A stretch of DNA of 32,000 nucleotides from Wigglesworthia glossinidia endosymbiont of Glossina morsitans morsitans (Yale colony) (GTDB taxonomy: Bacteria; Pseudomonadota; Gammaproteobacteria; Enterobacterales; Enterobacteriaceae). A program made the translations under genes and the position numbers. Below are positions 2,377-28,389 of this stretch, piece after piece. The number at the start of each line of letters is the position of its first letter. The first letter of the stretch is position 1. The notes under the pieces are model-generated. The model saw nothing but the letters and a program-made list of their open reading frames with translations, made no database searches and had not been told where the DNA came from. Where the stretch lies: assembly GCF_000247565.1 (NCBI RefSeq), contig NC_016893.1, forward strand, positions 660,001-692,000, read 5' to 3'.

Positions 2377-4242
2377 ATGAAAAAAAAAATTTTTTTAAAA
2401 TCAAAAAAAATTATTTCTCATACTATTTTAATTTGTATTATTTTATCTCTTTTATTAACCGGAATAGGAGCATATTTAATAAATGAAAATTATGCAATAA
2501 AAATAGGAAACGAAAAAATTCCGTACAAAAAAATTCAGCAAATTATGATGGATCTATATGCTAATCAAAAAAACTTAGATACTACTAAATCCGACTCTTT
2601 CTATTTAAAAAATGAAGCGATATTAAAAATAATTAATCATACCTTATTAAAGCAATATGCAAAAAATATTCATTTGATTATATCAGATCAAAAAATAAAA
2701 AATACAATACAGTCTCTATCTTTTTTTAATTCTGAAGAAAAATTTAATTTAGAGAAATTAAAAATTACGTTAAATAATTCTGGATTAACATTGAAAGAGT
2801 TCATTAACGAAATACACGATCATCTATTAGTAGAAGAACTAATAAAAAATATTAATCTTACATCTTTTTTTCTTCCATATGAAATTGATCAAGTTTTATT
2901 TAATACTTTTCAAGAACGTTACGTAAGAATTATAACATATAACAAATATAAATTAATTGATCAACAGCATGTTTCTGAAGCTGATATTTATGCAGAATAT
3001 AAATTAAATCAAAAAAAATATGAATTACCAGAAAAATTTAATATGGATTATATTCTAATAAATTTAGAAAACATAAACAATAATATTGTTGTTGATACAA
3101 GTGAAGTGGAGAAATGGTACAAAAAAAATATTGAAATGTTTACTTTGCCAGAACAAAAAAGATATAGTGTGATTCAAACACATACAAAAGAAGAAGCGGA
3201 GTACTGTTTGCAACAAATTGAAGCCGGAGAAGATTTCTCTAAAATTGCACGACAAAGATCTAAAGATATTTTTTCCTCTTTAAATTCAGGAGATCTCGGA
3301 TGGATATCTGATGATATTTTTATAGAAGAAATTCACTTAGCTGATTTAAAAAATAAAAATGAAATATCTAAAATTATCAAATCTCCTTCTTCTGGATACC
3401 TAATTATTAAATTAGTGGATATAAAATTTAAAAATATACAAAATTTACAATCAGTATACAGTATTGTTGAAAAGCGAATCAAATCTGATAAATCTAAAAA
3501 CATGTTTAAGCGTCATAAAGAAAATATAGAAAATTTAATAAATAATAATTCATTGAATTTAATTGATCTTGCTTCTCATTTACATATTAATACAAATAAA
3601 ACTGGGTTGTTAAAGATTGAAAAGATATCAAATTTTTTACTAAAACAGTTAAATTTGAGCAAATCTGATTTTTTTAATCATATAAATTTGAATTCATGCG
3701 ATAATCTTTTACAGAAAAACCAGTTATATAGTGACGATAAAAATATTTTAATTTTTTGCGTAAAAAATTCTCAATCTAAATATACACAACCTTTAAATGA
3801 AATAAAAGATAAAATTATAAAAGAAATAAAAAATAAAAAATTTATGTTACAAACGCGAATAAATCTTGAAAAGATAATAACTGAACTAAATTCTAAAAAT
3901 TCATCAGAAGCGATTAATCAATTAAAAAATACGGGTTTAATCATTTCTGAAATTAAAAAAGTGAGTATATTTGATGAAAATTACGAAGATATTTTTAAAA
4001 AGTTTGTGTTTAATATGCCAGAACCTTCAAAAGAAAATATAACATTCAAAATTTTTAATAATAATGATAAAATTTTTTTAGTCGCTTTAGAAAAAATATC
4101 TTTTAAAAAAGCAAATAATCTAGAAAAAAATATATTAATTAATCAATGGAAAGAACAAATAATTTCATTAAATTTAGAAGCATTATTAGTTAATTTACGT
4201 AATTCTACAAAGATAAAATCTAAAATTTTAGAAAAATACTAA
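2377..4242 (+). CDS. ppiD: Periplasmic chaperone / peptidyl-prolyl isomerase PpiD (highly diverged)
   Basis: A 621-aa ORF immediately downstream of lon, in the same neighbourhood as E. coli. It has an N-terminal membrane anchor (ILICIILSLLLTGIGAYLI) and a parvulin-like segment (SGDLGWISDD). Its length is close to E. coli PpiD. Confidence 0.85.
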   Translation: MKKKIFLKSKKIISHTILICIILSLLLTGIGAYLINENYAIKIGNEKIPYKKIQQIMMDLYANQKNLDTTKSDSFYLKNEAILKIINHTLLKQYAKNIHLIISDQKIKNTIQSLSFFNSEEKFNLEKLKITLNNSGLTLKEFINEIHDHLLVEELIKNINLTSFFLPYEIDQVLFNTFQERYVRIITYNKYKLIDQQHVSEADIYAEYKLNQKKYELPEKFNMDYILINLENINNNIVVDTSEVEKWYKKNIEMFTLPEQKRYSVIQTHTKEEAEYCLQQIEAGEDFSKIARQRSKDIFSSLNSGDLGWISDDIFIEEIHLADLKNKNEISKIIKSPSSGYLIIKLVDIKFKNIQNLQSVYSIVEKRIKSDKSKNMFKRHKENIENLINNNSLNLIDLASHLHINTNKTGLLKIEKISNFLLKQLNLSKSDFFNHINLNSCDNLLQKNQLYSDDKNILIFCVKNSQSKYTQPLNEIKDKIIKEIKNKKFMLQTRINLEKIITELNSKNSSEAINQLKNTGLIISEIKKVSIFDENYEDIFKKFVFNMPEPSKENITFKIFNNNDKIFLVALEKISFKKANNLEKNILINQWKEQIISLNLEALLVNLRNSTKIKSKILEKY

Positions 4243-15067: not shown

Positions 15068-15460
15068 TTATTTTTTTTTTATTATTATATTATCATTTTG
15101 TTGCATCGGATAATCTCTAGGTTGTATTTTACCAGACGATAATTCGTAATTATATAAAGTTTTTAACACATCATCTGATGAATTAAACTTTTTTTGTTTT
15201 TTTAGAAGCAAATTTTTTGCACTTTTTAAAGTATACTGATGTAGATTATGATGATCTTTTATCAAATTTTCTAATAATTTTATGCTATTTAAAAAATACT
15301 GTTGCAATTCCATTTGATGATTTATTAACTCTTCTCGATGTTTATCTAGATTTTTTTTGAATTTATTTTTATTACATATATTTTTATTACCATATTTTAT
15401 GAGAAAAAAACTAACGATCATTCCTAAAATAAATCCGAATATAATATATAGTGATAGCAT
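15068..15460 (-). CDS. yhcB: Inner-membrane DUF1043 protein YhcB (ZapG)
   Basis: 130 aa with a single N-terminal TM helix and a coiled-coil region. The C-terminal PRDY motif is shared with E. coli YhcB. It sits next to zapE and degQ. A strong AGGAGG lies just upstream of the ATG. Confidence 0.85.
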   Translation of the reverse strand: MLSLYIIFGFILGMIVSFFLIKYGNKNICNKNKFKKNLDKHREELINHQMELQQYFLNSIKLLENLIKDHHNLHQYTLKSAKNLLLKKQKKFNSSDDVLKTLYNYELSSGKIQPRDYPMQQNDNIIIKKK

Positions 15461-15470: not shown

Positions 15471-15582
15471 GTGATTTTTAAAAAAAATACTATTTCAATA
15501 GTAACATCATATGAACATGCAAAATTATATTTATTATGATAAATTATGTTATAAAAGAACTACTTTATCATTATTTAAATTC

Positions 15583-15587
15583 AGGAA
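15583..15587 (+). promoter_or_regulatory. Shine-Dalgarno-like AGGAA upstream of the proposed zapE start
   Basis: The sequence tcAGGAAtatcATG places an ATG at 15592, the start that best aligns with the E. coli ZapE N-terminus. Confidence 0.45.
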
Positions 15588-15591
15588 TATC

Positions 15592-16699
15592 ATGCTTACA
15601 AATTCTTTATTCATAATATATCGCAATATAGTTCGTAAAAAAAATTATCATTTAGATAAATCCCAATATGATGTAATTTTACATTTAGATCAAATTTATA
15701 AAACTTTTATGCCAAAAAATAATAATTTAAAAAACAGTAGTATTATGTTTTTCAAAAGAGTTTTATTTAAATTATTTAATAAAAAAAAAACTACACAATT
15801 TATATATCTGGGGTGGTGTAGGAAGAGGGAAAACCTGGTTGATGAATTTATTTTACCAATCAGTACCAACTAATAGAAAAATGAGAATTCATTTTCATGA
15901 ATTTATGATAAAAATACATAAAGATATGTATATACTGCAAGGAAAAAAAAATCCATTAAAAATTGTAGCAAAAAATTTCAAAAATAAAGTAGACATTATA
16001 TGTTTTGATGAATTTTTTATTTCAGACATTGCAGATGCAATGCTACTAGGAAATTTAATTAAATACTTTTTAAAAGTAAACATATTATTAATCATAACAT
16101 CAAATTTTCCACCATGTGATTTATACAAAGATGGTTTGCAAAGATCACAATTTTTACCAACTATTGAATTAATTTACAAATATTATACTATACTAAATCT
16201 GGATTCTGGAGTAGATTATCGTTTGTTAAATGTGCATATTTCTAAATTTTGGTTATATCCGATTAATGAAAAGAATATAAATAAAATGAAAAAACTTTTT
16301 TTTAAATTTATTGGAAATAAAAATAATTTTAAAAAAAATGTAAATATTGAAATTAATCATAGAAAAATTAAAACTTTATGGTTATCAAATAAAATATCAG
16401 CATTTAATTTTAAAGATCTATGCATATCATCTTGCAGTCAAAATGATTATATTGTAATTGCGCAAAAATTTGCTATTATTTTTCTATATAACGTAATTCA
16501 AATTGATAATAGTCAGGAAGATGTTGGCAAAAGATTTTTATTTTTAATAGATGCATTATATGCAAATCGAGTGAAATTAATTACTATATCATCTGTATGC
16601 ATATCACAAATATATAATGGTGATTTATTAAAATTTGAATATAATAGATGTATTTCAAGACTGTATGAAATGCAAAGCGAAAAATATTTTGTGCTTTAA
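15592..16699 (+). pseudogene. zapE: Cell-division AAA+ ATPase ZapE (YhcM), interrupted by a 1-nt frameshift in an A10 tract; may still be expressed through slippage
   Basis: Two ORFs (15511..15873 and 15839..16699) together cover E. coli ZapE. The N-part ends ...FNKKKTTQF. The second frame is open from 15731 and reads KKKLHNLYIWGGVGRGKTWLMNLFYQSVP, matching E. coli RGLYMWGGVGRGKTWLMDLFYQSLP. Walker A (GGVGRGKT) and Walker B (ICFDEFFISD) are intact downstream. Removing one A from the tract at 15781-15790 gives one continuous reading frame of about 368 aa. Confidence 0.88.
15781..15790 (+). repeat. Poly(A)10 homopolymer at the zapE frameshift site
   Basis: Ten consecutive A (t at 15780, c at 15791). 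The frame changes across this tract. Confidence 0.95.
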
Positions 16700-25925: not shown

Positions 25926-26181
25926 TAAAAATTATTTTTTAAGTTATTAAAATAATTATAAATAAAAGATTTATAGATGAAAATATTTTATTAAATATTT
26001 AATACTATGAAGAATTAAATTTAAAATAACTTTTCAATTATATTGAAAAAAATTATATTTTGTTAATGTAATAAAAATAATTTTATATATTATTCAAATA
26101 TGTTAAAAAACAAATGATCTTGAACAATTTATTTATATATTTTATATTGCATACAATTTATTCATCATTCTTTATAAAATT

Positions 26182-27548
26182 ATGATAATACCAATATATT
26201 TTAATCAAAAAAAATATCAAAAATATTTAATTGAACTACCTAAAATCAAACAATTTTCAAAAAATATAAGAACAATATATAATTCGCAAGATTTTTTTAA
26301 TTTACTTATAAAAAAAATTTCTGAAGCAAAAAAATTAATTTACCTAGCCGTATTATATTTAGAAAAAGATCAATCAGGTTTGCAAATATTAAAAACAATA
26401 TATCAAGCAAAAAAAAACAACCCTAATTTAGAAGTTGCAATCTTAGTAGATTGGTATAGAGCTCACAGAACAATTTTAGGTAAAAAACAAGGTATAACGA
26501 ATGCTGATTGGTATTCTGATATGGCGACTATATATAAAAATATTAATGTACCAATTTATGGAATCCCTGTAAATCTTAATGAAGCATTAGGAGTATTGCA
26601 TCTTAAAGGATTTATTGTTGATAATTATGTATTTTATAGTGGTGCAAGTATTAGTAATGCATATTTAAATCAATTTAATAAAAAATGCCGTCATGATAGA
26701 TATCAAATGATTTGCAATGACGCTTTAGCTAATTCCATGTTAAATTTTATTCAATCAAAATTATTAATTGAAAGTTCAATGCTTTTAAACAATTATAAAC
26801 CATATAAAAAAAAAAATTTTTTATTAGACGTTACTCGAGAGTATTACGTAAAAAATTGAAATCTAGCCAGTATCATTACGACACTGATCTATGCCATAAT
26901 CAACTTTCTATTGCACCAATCTTAGGATTAGGTAAAAATAATTTGTTAAATCGCGTGATACATAATCTCGTATGTGCTACAAAGTATAAATTAATTTTAT
27001 GTACGCCATACTTTAATTTATTTCCTTTGTTAATTAAAGATATATCAAAGATTTTAAGTTTACATAAAACCGTGGAAATTATTGTTGGTGATAAAATTGC
27101 AAATGATTTTTATACTTCAAACAAACATACATTCAAAATTATCAGTATAATACCGTATTTGTATGAAATTAACTTAAGAAATTTTATGAAAAATTATCAA
27201 AATTATATAGACGATGGAAATTTAATTATTAAATTATGGAAAAATAAAAATAATAGTTTTCACATTAAAGGTATCTGGGTTGATGAAATATGGATGTTAT
27301 TAACTGGAAATAATTTTAATGCACGAGCATGGGCGTTAGATTTAGAAAATGCAATTTTAATACACGATCCAAAACAAGAAATTTATATTCAACGTAAAAA
27401 AGAACTATCTTATATTTGCAAGCATACAAAAAGAATAAAAAATTTTCGAGAAATTGAAAAAATTTCTGATTATCCTGCAAAAGTGCAAAGAATTATTCGA
27501 AATATTAAAGTGATACATTTCGATCGATTAATTAAAAAAATATTATAA
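26182..27548 (+). pseudogene. pssA: CDP-diacylglycerol--serine O-phosphatidyltransferase (phosphatidylserine synthase), split by a frameshift in an A11 tract; probably still functional through slippage
   Basis: ORFs 26182..26859 and 26856..27548 cover the N- and C-halves of E. coli PssA. The first HKD motif (HLKGFIVD) is in part 1 and the second (HIKGIWVD) in part 2. The second frame is open from 26808 and reads KKKFFIRRYSRVLRKKLKSSQYHY..NQLSIAPILGLGKNN, matching E. coli ..IRLFRQELRDAAYHF..DQLSVTPLVGLGKSS. One extra A (or two fewer) in the tract at 26806-26816 fuses the frames into a protein of about 455 aa. Confidence 0.9.
26806..26816 (+). repeat. Poly(A)11 homopolymer (followed by T6) at the pssA frameshift site
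   Basis: Eleven consecutive A counted directly (cat at AAAAAAAAAAA tttttt). The frame changes across it. Confidence 0.95.
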
Positions 27549-27555
27549 AATAAAC

Positions 27556-28389
27556 TTATATGCAATTAATATGGTTATAATTAATGTTAATTTTTTTTAA
27601 TGTTTGAAAATTATAAGATTTTAAAATATTGCGTAATTTTTTTGAAAAAATTAATTTCGTGCAGTAAGCAATTCCTGATATATTATTGACGACTGGTTTG
27701 TTTTTTAAAATATTTGATAGTAATAAACAAGACTGATCTTTTATTTTTTTTCTAGAATCGATCAATTTAATTTTTTCAGGAAAACTTTTAATAATTTCTG
27801 GTATAAGATACGAAAGATGTGTGCATCCTAAAATTATAGTGTCTGGAATAGGAGAATTTTGAAGAAAAGAAATTAAGCAATTTTGCACTAATTTGTAAGA
27901 AATATGATTTCTAAGTATTTTTTCTTCTGATAATAAAATTAATTTATGAGCATCTAATTTAATAATTTTAACACCACTTAATTCTAATTCGAATAACGAA
28001 AAATGATTAATAGTAATAGATGTCCCTAAAAACCCTATAACTTTATTTTTTGTATAATTAAGCGCAGTACTTATTTCTGGAATGACTCCAATTATTGGAT
28101 TTAATAATTTATTTTTTAAATAAGATAACGCAATTATGCTTGCTGTATTGCATGCAAGAATCGTTAAATCTATTTTATGCATTTTGTGAATTTTAGTAAT
28201 AATTTTTACAATACGATTCAATATAAATGTTTTAGACTTTTTACCATATGGAAATTCTGCATTGTCAAATATATATATATATTTTGCACATGGTATATAT
28301 TTTTTAATCTTGTTATAAATAGATAACCCTCCTGTTCCTGAATCAAAAATTGCAATTACGGGTAAAATATATTTAGTTTGATTTATCAT
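27556..28389 (-). CDS. murI: Glutamate racemase
   Basis: 277 aa with FDSGTGGLS, the catalytic Cys contexts LACNTAS and LGCTHLS, and FPYGKKS. Collinear with E. coli MurI but without its N-terminal extension. Confidence 0.93.
   Translation of the reverse strand: MINQTKYILPVIAIFDSGTGGLSIYNKIKKYIPCAKYIYIFDNAEFPYGKKSKTFILNRIVKIITKIHKMHKIDLTILACNTASIIALSYLKNKLLNPIIGVIPEISTALNYTKNKVIGFLGTSITINHFSLFELELSGVKIIKLDAHKLILLSEEKILRNHISYKLVQNCLISFLQNSPIPDTIILGCTHLSYLIPEIIKSFPEKIKLIDSRKKIKDQSCLLLSNILKNKPVVNNISGIAYCTKLIFSKKLRNILKSYNFQTLKKININYNHINCI

What the first reader, a model, noticed from the sequence alone, without database searches (positions are those of the whole stretch)
26182..27548. The normally essential pssA gene is split by a frameshift exactly inside an A11 tract, yet both halves look fully conserved
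Seen in the sequence: the PssA reading frame changes within the homopolymer at 26806-26816 (A11 followed by T6). Upstream of the tract the N-half, including the first HKD motif HLKGFIVD, is intact. The alternative frame opens at 26808 inside the tract. It then aligns residue-for-residue with the E. coli PssA C-half for about 245 codons without a stop, including the second HKD motif HIKGIWVD. That is unlikely without selection in DNA this AT-rich, where stop codons arise easily. Established knowledge: PssA makes phosphatidylserine, the precursor of phosphatidylethanolamine, and is needed for normal growth in E. coli. In Buchnera and Blochmannia, frameshifts in long poly(A) tracts have been reported to be partially corrected by transcriptional slippage (Tamas et al. 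2008, PNAS). Inference: pssA here is probably expressed as a full-length protein from a subpopulation of slipped transcripts (A12 or A9). Alternatively it may work as two polypeptides. The trivial alternative is a homopolymer-length sequencing error.
Basis: partly seen in the sequence, partly recalled or inferred. Interest (0 to 1): 0.7.

Follow-up and report, generated by a model that had tools for sequence, protein, structure and literature searches.

The report
Conserved poly(A) frameshift in Wigglesworthia pssA
The tsetse-fly symbiont Wigglesworthia carries a one-base frameshift in a run of As in its membrane-lipid gene pssA; at least three diverged lineages share it and both halves stay under strong selection, so the gene is evidently still used and its frame must be corrected by slippage at the run, a rescue already known from aphid and ant symbionts.

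Summary
The window comes from Wigglesworthia glossinidia of Glossina morsitans (CP003315). pssA changes frame inside A11T6 (26806-26822), and A12 or A9 would give a 455-aa protein, the length of the intact orthologs.

It is neither a sequencing error nor a decaying pseudogene:
- Two independent assemblies of other Wigglesworthia lineages (94.7% and 86.8% nt identity) carry the same frame defect at the same site (A10T7, A9T11).
- G. palpalis and G. brevipalpis Wigglesworthia are intact (AAT+A9T6, AAAT+A8T6).
- Among the frameshifted lineages, dN/dS is 0.08-0.15 for the N-half and 0.07-0.08 for the C-half. Uninterrupted neighbours give 0.07-0.19.
- The C-half has no conserved start codon, yet the codons between the tract and the first possible start are conserved in the downstream frame.

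Full-length PssA must therefore be made by frame correction at the tract. RNA-polymerase slippage is the most likely mechanism (inferred, not shown). A -1 ribosomal frameshift on the conserved A_AAA_AAA / U_UUU_UUA heptamers would give the same or nearly the same product and cannot be excluded.

This is a new, well-supported member of a known kind (Tamas 2008; Wernegreen 2010). A second case, zapE with A10 at 15781-15790, lies in the same window.

The parts
26182..26816 (+). pssA N-terminal coding part (frame 1), from the ATG to the end of the A tract. Encodes most of the first PLD domain, up to about E. coli residue 206-208.
   Evidence: ORF list and translation; Pfam PLDc_2/PLDc; alignment with intact orthologs and with 8YR5; dN/dS 0.076-0.146 among the frameshifted lineages.
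26599..26622 (+). First HKD motif, HLKGFIVD (catalytic His/Lys, equivalent to E. coli H138/K140).
   Evidence: Sequence; invariant H140/K142 in alignment A1; roles taken from PMC11654701.
26805..26807 (+). TAA that closes the downstream (C) frame. Frame correction cannot happen upstream of this point.
   Evidence: Three-frame translation; the same arrangement is seen in L011 and L012.
26806..26816 (+). A11 tract: the frameshift site and most likely slippage site. It contains the -1 slippery heptamers A_AAA_AAA (26808-26814) and A_AAA_AAT (26811-26817) in the upstream frame.
   Evidence: Orthologous tracts are A10 (L011), A9 (L012), AAT+A9 (intact G. palpalis) and AAAT+A8 (intact G. brevipalpis).
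26817..26823 (+). T6 tract plus A, giving T_TTT_TTA. This is a second canonical -1 slippery heptamer in the upstream frame. The T run is extended to T7 in L011 and T11 in L012.
26823..26855 (+). Bridge codons (IRRYSRVLRKK in the downstream frame). They lie upstream of any canonical start codon and correspond to the E. coli membrane-binding patch K212/R219.
   Evidence: The RRYSRVLRK stretch is identical in L011 and in intact G. palpalis, with only synonymous differences in this frame. Patch residues come from PMC11654701.
26857..26859 (+). TGA that ends the upstream frame. Uncorrected translation gives a 225-aa product with a 14-residue out-of-frame tail.
26808..27548 (+). pssA C-terminal coding part (frame 0), 246 codons plus stop. 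It covers the end of the first PLD domain and the whole second PLD domain.
   Evidence: dN/dS is 0.072-0.084 among the frameshifted lineages, and the same DNA read in the other two frames gives ratios >= 1.
27261..27284 (+). Second HKD motif, HIKGIWVD (equivalent to E. coli H357/K359).
26120..26148 (+). Possible pssA promoter (TTGAAC, 17 nt, TATATT). This is a weak, consensus-only call.
   Evidence: the number of promoter-like hits is not above the shuffled expectation. The sequence is identical in L011.

Best explanation
pssA of Wigglesworthia glossinidia (G. morsitans symbiont) is a functional gene that carries an old, fixed one-base deletion. Relative to the intact sister sequence TAT AAT AAA AAA AAA TTT TTT, the T that interrupted the A run is gone, which leaves A11T6 and puts the last 246 codons in the -1 frame. 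Full-length 455-aa PssA, with both HKD motifs forming one active site, is made only from messages or translation events that regain the frame inside the tract. The most likely route is RNA polymerase slipping on the A11 run and adding one A (or dropping two) in a fraction of transcripts, which are then translated normally to ...YKKKKFFIRR.... The remaining transcripts yield a truncated 225-aa product. Shown here: the frameshift, its sharing by three diverged lineages, strong purifying selection on both halves and on the bridge codons, and the lack of an independent start for the C-half. Inferred: that correction happens at the RNA level rather than on the ribosome, and how efficient it is.
For: - Source genome: the window is W. 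glossinidia from G. morsitans. The C-half equals WP_236607847.1 and the N-half equals WP_236607846.1, both on a 719,535-bp contig. That genome was Sanger-sequenced.
- Shared defect: the same frame defect at the same site occurs in two independent Logan assemblies. L011 (SRR14633898, 94.7% nt identity) has A10T7 and L012 (SRR5590064, 86.8%) has A9T11. Total tract length is unchanged and both halves are open.
- Intact relatives: the G. palpalis gambiensis (Illumina MAG) and G. brevipalpis orthologs are intact, and the window differs from the former by one missing T.
- Selection: among the frameshifted lineages dN/dS is 0.076-0.146 for the N-half and 0.072-0.084 for the C-half (Fisher p 5e-12 to 3e-33). 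This matches the uninterrupted neighbours pitA, hemB, murI and pyrD (0.07-0.19). Wrong frames of the C-half give >= 1.
- No independent start: TTG at 26856 is CTA in L012, whose only called start is a lineage-specific GTG 19 codons further on. The bridge codons upstream of these starts are nevertheless conserved in the downstream frame.
- Tract length: every frameshifted lineage keeps a run of at least 9 A (and T11 in L012), which is the length class at which bacterial RNA polymerase slips. Slippage at poly(A) frameshifts in Buchnera and Blochmannia gave 12-50% corrected transcripts (citing Tamas 2008).
- Second case: zapE in the same window is out of frame in either direction in different lineages (A10 vs A11) and still has a constrained C-part. 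This fits a mechanism that both adds and removes bases.
Against: - No transcript or protein data were available, so slippage itself is untested in Wigglesworthia.
- Baranov et al. 2005 found A/T runs equally frequent in coding and non-coding DNA of W. glossinidia and suggested its polymerase may not slip. In this window at least 60 of 72 runs >= 8 nt lie in ORFs, consistent with no avoidance.
- Canonical -1 ribosomal slippery heptamers sit in the right frame at the same place and would give the same product.
- The host species of L011 and L012 are unknown, so a single origin of the frameshift is inferred from sequence similarity only.
Confidence: 0.55

Rival explanations
1. The frame is corrected on the ribosome. 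A -1 ribosomal frameshift, or sliding on the lysine-encoding A run, takes place at A_AAA_AAA or at U_UUU_UUA. Uniformly A11 mRNA then produces both a truncated 225-aa protein and full-length PssA.
For: The required shift is -1. A_AAA_AAA (26808-26814) and T_TTT_TTA (26817-23) lie in the upstream frame and are kept in all three frameshifted lineages despite A-to-T changes in the tract. The upstream-frame stop follows only 14 codons later. Baranov 2005's inference that Wigglesworthia polymerase may not slip points the same way. Atkins 2016 discusses corrective translational frameshifting in endosymbionts.
Against: No convincing stimulator was found. The only downstream hairpin is about -2.7 kcal/mol, starts 5 nt after the second heptamer, is lost in L012 (-0.3 kcal/mol) and shows no covariation. 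No Shine-Dalgarno-like element is visible upstream. zapE in this window needs a +1 correction in the window and a -1 correction in L016, which a pure -1 mechanism cannot serve.
Confidence: 0.22
2. In-frame gene copies exist at the DNA level. Replication slippage keeps a minority of A12 (or A9) genome copies in the polyploid symbiont population, and these supply PssA.
For: Long homopolymers are indel hot spots. The zapE tract differs in length between the window (A10) and L016 (A11), which shows DNA-level turnover of such tracts.
Against: The consensus is out of frame in three independent assemblies. The pssA tract has kept exactly the same total length over dS of about 0.45-0.85, changing only by A-to-T substitutions. 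No in-frame allele closer than 80% is in the protein collection.
Confidence: 0.08
3. PssA works as two separate polypeptides, an N-domain fragment and a C-domain fragment that assemble. This would resemble PLD-family enzymes built from two single-HKD subunits.
For: E. coli PssA is pseudo-twofold, with one HKD per domain and the active site at the domain interface. The break lies near the end of the N domain. RefSeq annotates two CDSs.
Against: There is no conserved start. TTG at 26856 is present in the window and L011 but is CTA in L012, and the L012 gene call starts at a GTG that is GCA in the window. The 11 bridge codons upstream of TTG are conserved in the downstream frame and correspond to the membrane-binding patch K212/R219. 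The break falls inside the N domain (residues 27-224), not in the 225-238 interdomain segment.
Confidence: 0.07
4. The gene is a pseudogene in early decay, with phosphatidylserine synthesis dispensable or supplied otherwise.
For: The Wigglesworthia morsitans paper lists 11 pseudogenes, 6 of them with 1-2 indel frameshifts. Neither half carries an original GenBank protein accession in the collection, which is consistent with a pseudogene annotation.
Against: dN/dS is 0.07-0.15 in both halves after the frameshift, equal to intact neighbours. There are no stops or further indels in three lineages.
Confidence: 0.03
5. The frameshift is a homopolymer-length error in the assembly.
For: The genome was built from MDA-amplified DNA and PCR-amplified clone inserts at 9.4x Sanger coverage, and both steps can slip on A11.
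Against: Two other assemblies, from different runs and different lineages, have the same frame defect.
Confidence: 0.02

Closest known systems
Conserved poly(A)-tract frameshifts rescued by transcriptional slippage in Buchnera aphidicola and Blochmannia (Tamas et al. 2008 PNAS; Wernegreen et al. 2010 MBE; Williams & Wernegreen 2010, PMC3017870)
   Same: An AT-rich obligate insect symbiont has a single-base indel inside a run of at least 9-11 A, and the gene is otherwise intact. The frameshift is shared between species and the sequence remains under purifying selection. Housekeeping genes are affected.
   Different: The organism (Wigglesworthia) and the gene (pssA) differ, and neither paper search linked Wigglesworthia pssA to a frameshift or slippage. 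The A run abuts a T run that has grown at its expense (A11T6, A10T7, A9T11). Slippage in Wigglesworthia has not been measured and has been doubted.
Programmed -1 ribosomal frameshifting at A_AAA_AAG in E. coli dnaX and at U_UUU_UUA in HIV-1 gag-pol
   Same: The same classes of slippery heptamer lie in the correct frame, with a nearby stop in the zero frame, so two products are possible.
   Different: There is no conserved downstream structure or upstream SD-like stimulator. The site arose by a deletion in a previously uninterrupted gene, and the intact state is retained in sister lineages.
E. coli type I phosphatidylserine synthase PssA (PDB 8YR5/8YR6; H. influenzae 3HSI)
   Same: The corrected 455-aa protein aligns end to end. 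Both HKD motifs are invariant, as are the residues aligned with the E. coli partners D169 and E385.
   Different: The coding sequence is interrupted by a frameshift at the position of E. coli residues about 206-211, a variable region next to membrane patch 1.
Pseudogenes with 1-2 indel frameshifts noted in the W. morsitans genome paper (Rio et al. 2012, PMC3280448)
   Same: It is the same genome. The authors already suggested that such frameshifts in homopolymeric tracts might be bypassed.
   Different: Their list (Table S1) could not be read. They had only one comparator genome, so neither the cross-lineage conservation nor the selection on pssA halves shown here could have been seen.

Membership tests
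Type I (PLD-superfamily) phosphatidylserine synthase PssA | Full-length homology to characterised PssA | tested here: met
   The corrected protein matches E. coli PssA 8YR5 over residues 7-455 with E = 4e-138, and 3HSI with E = 1.5e-117. It is 47-52% identical to enterobacterial PssA.
Type I (PLD-superfamily) phosphatidylserine synthase PssA | Two HKD motifs with catalytic His/Lys and their acidic partners | tested here: met
   H140/K142, H361/K363, D172 and E389 (window numbering) are invariant in A1. They correspond to E. coli H138/K140, H357/K359, D169 and E385.
Type I (PLD-superfamily) phosphatidylserine synthase PssA | Enzymatic activity (CDP-diacylglycerol + serine gives phosphatidylserine) | not testable with these tools
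   Requires a biochemical assay or complementation of an E. coli pssA mutant.
Selectively maintained homopolymer frameshift rescued by slippage (Tamas 2008 / Wernegreen 2010 class) | Single indel inside a poly(A)/poly(T) run of about 9 nt or more in an otherwise intact gene | tested here: met
   The tract is A11T6. It is one base short of the intact G. palpalis sequence, and there are no other stops or indels.
Selectively maintained homopolymer frameshift rescued by slippage (Tamas 2008 / Wernegreen 2010 class) | Frameshift shared by diverged lineages | tested here: met
   The window, L011 (94.7% identity) and L012 (86.8%) share the same frame defect. dS between them is 0.24-0.85.
Selectively maintained homopolymer frameshift rescued by slippage (Tamas 2008 / Wernegreen 2010 class) | Purifying selection on the sequence downstream of the frameshift | tested here: met
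   C-half dN/dS is 0.072-0.084 (p down to 3e-33) and neighbours give 0.07-0.19.
Selectively maintained homopolymer frameshift rescued by slippage (Tamas 2008 / Wernegreen 2010 class) | Mixed transcript pool with frame-restoring tract lengths | not testable with these tools
   No RNA reads are accessible. An attempt to read L012 as a transcript-derived contig gave no support.
Selectively maintained homopolymer frameshift rescued by slippage (Tamas 2008 / Wernegreen 2010 class) | Full-length protein produced | not testable with these tools
   Needs proteomics or a Western blot.
Programmed -1 ribosomal frameshift site | Slippery heptamer X_XXY_YYZ in the zero frame | tested here: met
   A_AAA_AAA and T_TTT_TTA are present in the upstream frame in all three lineages.
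Programmed -1 ribosomal frameshift site | Conserved stimulatory element (downstream hairpin or pseudoknot 5-9 nt away, or an upstream SD-like sequence) | tested here: not met
   Only a hairpin of -2.7 kcal/mol was found. It falls to -0.3 in L012, shows no compensatory changes, and no SD-like motif lies upstream.
Split two-polypeptide PLD enzyme | Conserved independent translation start for the second half | tested here: not met
   TTG at 26856 is CTA in L012, and the L012 GTG start is GCA in the window. Conserved codons lie upstream of both.
Decaying pseudogene | Relaxed constraint (dN/dS near 1, secondary stops or indels) | tested here: not met

The most novel reading that the evidence does not exclude
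The out-of-frame state may be selected rather than merely tolerated. The A/T tract would then act as a built-in attenuator or genuine recoding signal that fixes PssA output at a low level, and so sets the phosphatidylethanolamine to acidic-lipid balance. It might work through a -1 ribosomal frameshift on the tandem A_AAA_AAA / U_UUU_UUA heptamers, which would also yield a stable 225-aa N-domain product. This would explain why a hypermutable 17-20-nt homopolymer pair has kept exactly the same out-of-frame length in three lineages over dS of about 0.5-0.85 without reverting.
Probability: 0.15. Interest if true: 0.65.

Novelty: new member of a known kind. Interest (0 to 1): 0.42.

Why it matters
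- Metabolic models: pssA feeds the only route to phosphatidylethanolamine. Annotating it as a pseudogene or as two unrelated CDSs, as RefSeq now does, would wrongly remove membrane-lipid synthesis from metabolic models of an obligate tsetse symbiont that is a vector-control target.
- Generality: together with zapE, the case extends slippage-rescued homopolymer frameshifts to a third symbiont genus. It does so with unusually clean comparative evidence: intact outgroups, three frameshifted lineages, and selection as strong as on intact neighbours.
- Test system: it offers a natural locus for separating transcriptional from ribosomal correction, in an organism whose polymerase was once suggested not to slip.

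Tried and rejected
- A protein-based scan of genome contigs found nothing.
- A DNA-pattern scan returned only the G. brevipalpis and G. palpalis genomes. The source genome is not in that collection.
- Exact look-ups of window proteins (murI, the N-half, P0121) were not on record.
- Table S1 of Rio et al. 2012 is not held, so I could not confirm that pssA is among their 11 pseudogenes.
- Tamas 2008 and Wernegreen 2010 are not held. I cite them through PMC3017870 and PMC5009743.
- The host species of SRR14633898 and SRR5590064 could not be found.
- I tested whether the 1.49-kb contig L012 is a transcript, which would give an RNA-level tract length. I rejected this because its 5' end falls inside the putative -35 box rather than after a -10 box.
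- I considered a stimulatory RNA structure for -1 frameshifting. It is weak and not conserved.
- The Glossina austeni UniProt entry P0154 is Wigglesworthia pssA with a predicted 'intron' across the tract. That hints at a fourth frameshifted lineage, but the model has other artefacts and no DNA was available, so I did not use it as evidence.
Full report
**1. What is in the sequence**

Positions 26806-26816 are eleven As, followed by six Ts at 26817-22. This is the longest homopolymer in the window. An ORF starting at ATG 26182 reads through the tract (...NNYKPYKKKNFLLDVTREYYVKN) and stops at TGA 26857-59, giving 225 aa. The frame one base back is closed by TAA at 26805-07. It then stays open from 26808 to the stop at 27546-48, which is 246 codons beginning KKKFFIRRYSRVLRKK....

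Both parts hit PLD-like Pfam families. HLKGFIVD lies at 26599-26622 and HIKGIWVD at 27261-27284. One extra A (A12), or two fewer (A9), joins the frames into a 455-aa protein. That protein aligns in one piece with E. coli PssA (8YR5, E = 4e-138).

**2. Source of the window**

The two halves are identical to RefSeq proteins WP_236607846.1 ('phospholipase D-like domain-containing protein') and WP_236607847.1 ('CDP-diacylglycerol--serine O-phosphatidyltransferase') of Wigglesworthia glossinidia. Both sit on a 719,535-bp contig. That is the chromosome size of the G. morsitans symbiont, CP003315. The genome was obtained by Sanger shotgun sequencing of MDA-amplified DNA. Its authors listed 11 pseudogenes, six of them with only 1-2 indels, and remarked that frameshifts in homopolymers might be bypassed. 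Their table is not held.

**3. Related sequences**

| Lineage | Source | Tract | Frame | nt identity to window |
|---|---|---|---|---|
| Window | G. morsitans symbiont, Sanger | TAT A11 T6 ATT | shifted | – |
| L011 | SRR14633898, 59-kb syntenic contig | A10 T7 | shifted | 94.7% |
| L012 | SRR5590064 | A9 T11 | shifted | 86.8% |
| L001/L013 | G. palpalis gambiensis, Illumina MAG | TAT AAT A9 T6 ATT | intact | 83.4% |
| L002 | G. brevipalpis | AAAT A8 T6 | intact | 73% |

- Intact 455-aa orthologs exist in Wigglesworthia of G. palpalis gambiensis (80% aa identity) and G. brevipalpis (65%).
- The window lacks the single T of the G. palpalis AAT codon.
- In L011 and L012 the gene is split at the same place, the frame relationship is the same, and the total tract length is unchanged. 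Both halves are free of stops.
- The identities give the order ((window, L011), L012), G. palpalis, G. brevipalpis. The simplest history is one deletion in the ancestor of the first three, followed by A-to-T substitutions at the A/T boundary.
- No in-frame allele closer than 80% turned up among 5.8 billion protein clusters.
- The hosts of the two runs could not be identified. The 2024 G. palpalis gambiensis announcement compares only three Wigglesworthia genomes, and I found no paper citing these two runs.

**4. Selection**

| Comparison | dN/dS |
|---|---|
| pssA N-half, among frameshifted lineages | 0.076-0.146 |
| pssA C-half, among frameshifted lineages | 0.072-0.084 |
| C-half DNA read in the other two frames | >= 1 |
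| pitA, window vs L011 | 0.07 |
| hemB, window vs L011 | 0.08 |
| murI, window vs L011 | 0.17 |
| pyrD, window vs L011 | 0.19 |

- These are Nei-Gojobori estimates. Comparisons among the three frameshifted lineages sample only evolution after the frameshift. Fisher p ranges from 5e-12 to 3e-33.
- Uninterrupted neighbours give similar values.
- When the observed substitutions are placed at random, the C-half stays stop-free in 0.13-0.3% of trials for the deeper comparisons.
- The gene is therefore neither an artefact nor a decaying pseudogene, and its downstream part is translated in the downstream frame.

**5. How the downstream part gets translated**

A separately initiated C-fragment is unlikely.
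- The only canonical start near the junction, TTG at 26856, is CTA in L012.
- The L012 gene call starts at a GTG that is GCA in the window.
- The bridge codons between the tract and TTG read FFIRRYSRVLRKK, and the stretch FFIRRYSRVLRK is identical in L011 and in intact G. palpalis. In RRYSRVLRK the window and G. palpalis differ only by synonymous changes in that frame.
- The bridge codons align with E. coli residues 209-221, which include the membrane-binding residues K212 and R219. The break falls inside the N domain (27-224), not in the interdomain segment.

Ribosomes must therefore enter the downstream frame from upstream, within 26808-26856, and the homopolymer pair is the only slippery sequence there.

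**6. Which slippage**

Established knowledge, cited through:
- Bacterial RNA polymerase slips on runs of about 9 or more A/T.
- In Buchnera and Blochmannia, frameshifts in such runs are conserved between species.
- There, 12-50% of transcripts are corrected.

All three frameshifted lineages keep at least A9, and L012 adds T11. I therefore favour transcriptional slippage (A11 to A12).

The tract also contains A_AAA_AAA and U_UUU_UUA in the upstream frame in all three lineages. These are classic -1 ribosomal slippery heptamers. A shift in the A run would give the identical protein.

Evidence against a programmed ribosomal site:
- The only downstream hairpin is -2.7 kcal/mol and is lost in L012.
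- It shows no covariation.
- No SD-like element lies upstream.

Evidence against transcriptional slippage:
- Baranov et al. 2005 found no avoidance of A/T runs in W. glossinidia coding DNA and suggested that its polymerase may not slip.
- In this window at least 60 of 72 runs >= 8 nt are inside ORFs.

The tools cannot separate the two mechanisms.

**7. A second case in the same window**

- The ZapE (AFG1-like ATPase) gene is split at A10 (15781-15790). ORFs 15511-15873 and 15839-16699 are its two halves.
- The Walker A motif WGGVGRGKTW is in the downstream frame but upstream of any canonical start.
- The tract is A10 in the window, A11 on the L011-lineage contig (L016) and A10 in G. palpalis (L014). 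All are out of frame, since A9 or A12 is needed. G. brevipalpis has no tract and an intact 368-aa gene.
- The downstream part has dN/dS 0.13. The short N part is less constrained, at about 0.4-1.1 over 66 codons.
- The two lineages need corrections of opposite sign. That fits a process that both adds and removes bases, which favours polymerase slippage or non-directional ribosome sliding.

**8. Comparison with what is known, and verdict**

The protein is a bona fide type I PssA, with sequence, both HKD motifs and the acidic partner residues all conserved. The genetic arrangement meets every computable criterion of the 'ancient frameshift in a homopolymer maintained by selection' class described for Blochmannia and Buchnera. 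The two experimental criteria, a mixed transcript pool and full-length protein, could not be tested.

Literature searches found no report of the pssA case, or of slippage rescue, in Wigglesworthia. This is a new member of a known kind. It is solid and useful for annotation and for mechanism tests, but not surprising to a specialist.

Noticed in passing
window 15511-16699 (+), tract at 15781-15790; L016, L014, L015: The zapE/yhcM (AFG1-like ATPase) gene is split by a frameshift at an A10 run. The Walker A motif lies in the downstream frame, upstream of any start codon. The tract is A10 in the window, A11 in the L011-lineage contig and A10 in G. palpalis Wigglesworthia, all out of frame (A9 or A12 is needed). 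G. brevipalpis is intact and has no tract. The C part has dN/dS 0.13. RefSeq annotates only a 285-aa ZapE that lacks Walker A.
   Followed up: partly
P0154 (UniProt A0A1A9UK62, labelled Glossina austeni): A tsetse 'protein' in UniProt is really Wigglesworthia pssA from symbiont DNA in the fly assembly. Its eukaryotic gene model places an 'intron' exactly over the poly(A)/poly(T) junction (…CLNNHK|RYSRILRKK…). This hints that a fourth lineage carries the frameshift.
   Followed up: partly
whole window (72 runs of A or T >= 8 nt): At least 60 of the 72 long A/T runs lie inside ORFs, about the same as the coding fraction (about 88%). Long runs are thus not avoided in coding DNA, as Baranov et al. 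2005 reported for W. glossinidia.
   Followed up: partly
window 2380-2389 and 15071-15080: An A10 run starts at the second codon of ORF 2377-4242 (+). A T10 run lies at the 3' end of ORF 15068-15460 (-), where it encodes the C-terminal KKK. Both are in frame here but would be slippage-prone.
   Followed up: no
L011/L016 (SRR14633898, 59-kb contig) and L012 (SRR5590064): Public read sets contain Wigglesworthia lineages about 5% and about 13% diverged from the G. morsitans symbiont. They do not match any of the three published genomes in the pssA region. Their hosts are unknown.
   Followed up: partly
window 27556-28389 (-) versus L011 4719-5546: murI is convergent with pssA and its stop lies only 7 nt from the pssA stop. 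Its length differs between lineages: 277 aa in the window, 275 in L011, 272 in G. palpalis and 268 in G. brevipalpis.
   Followed up: no
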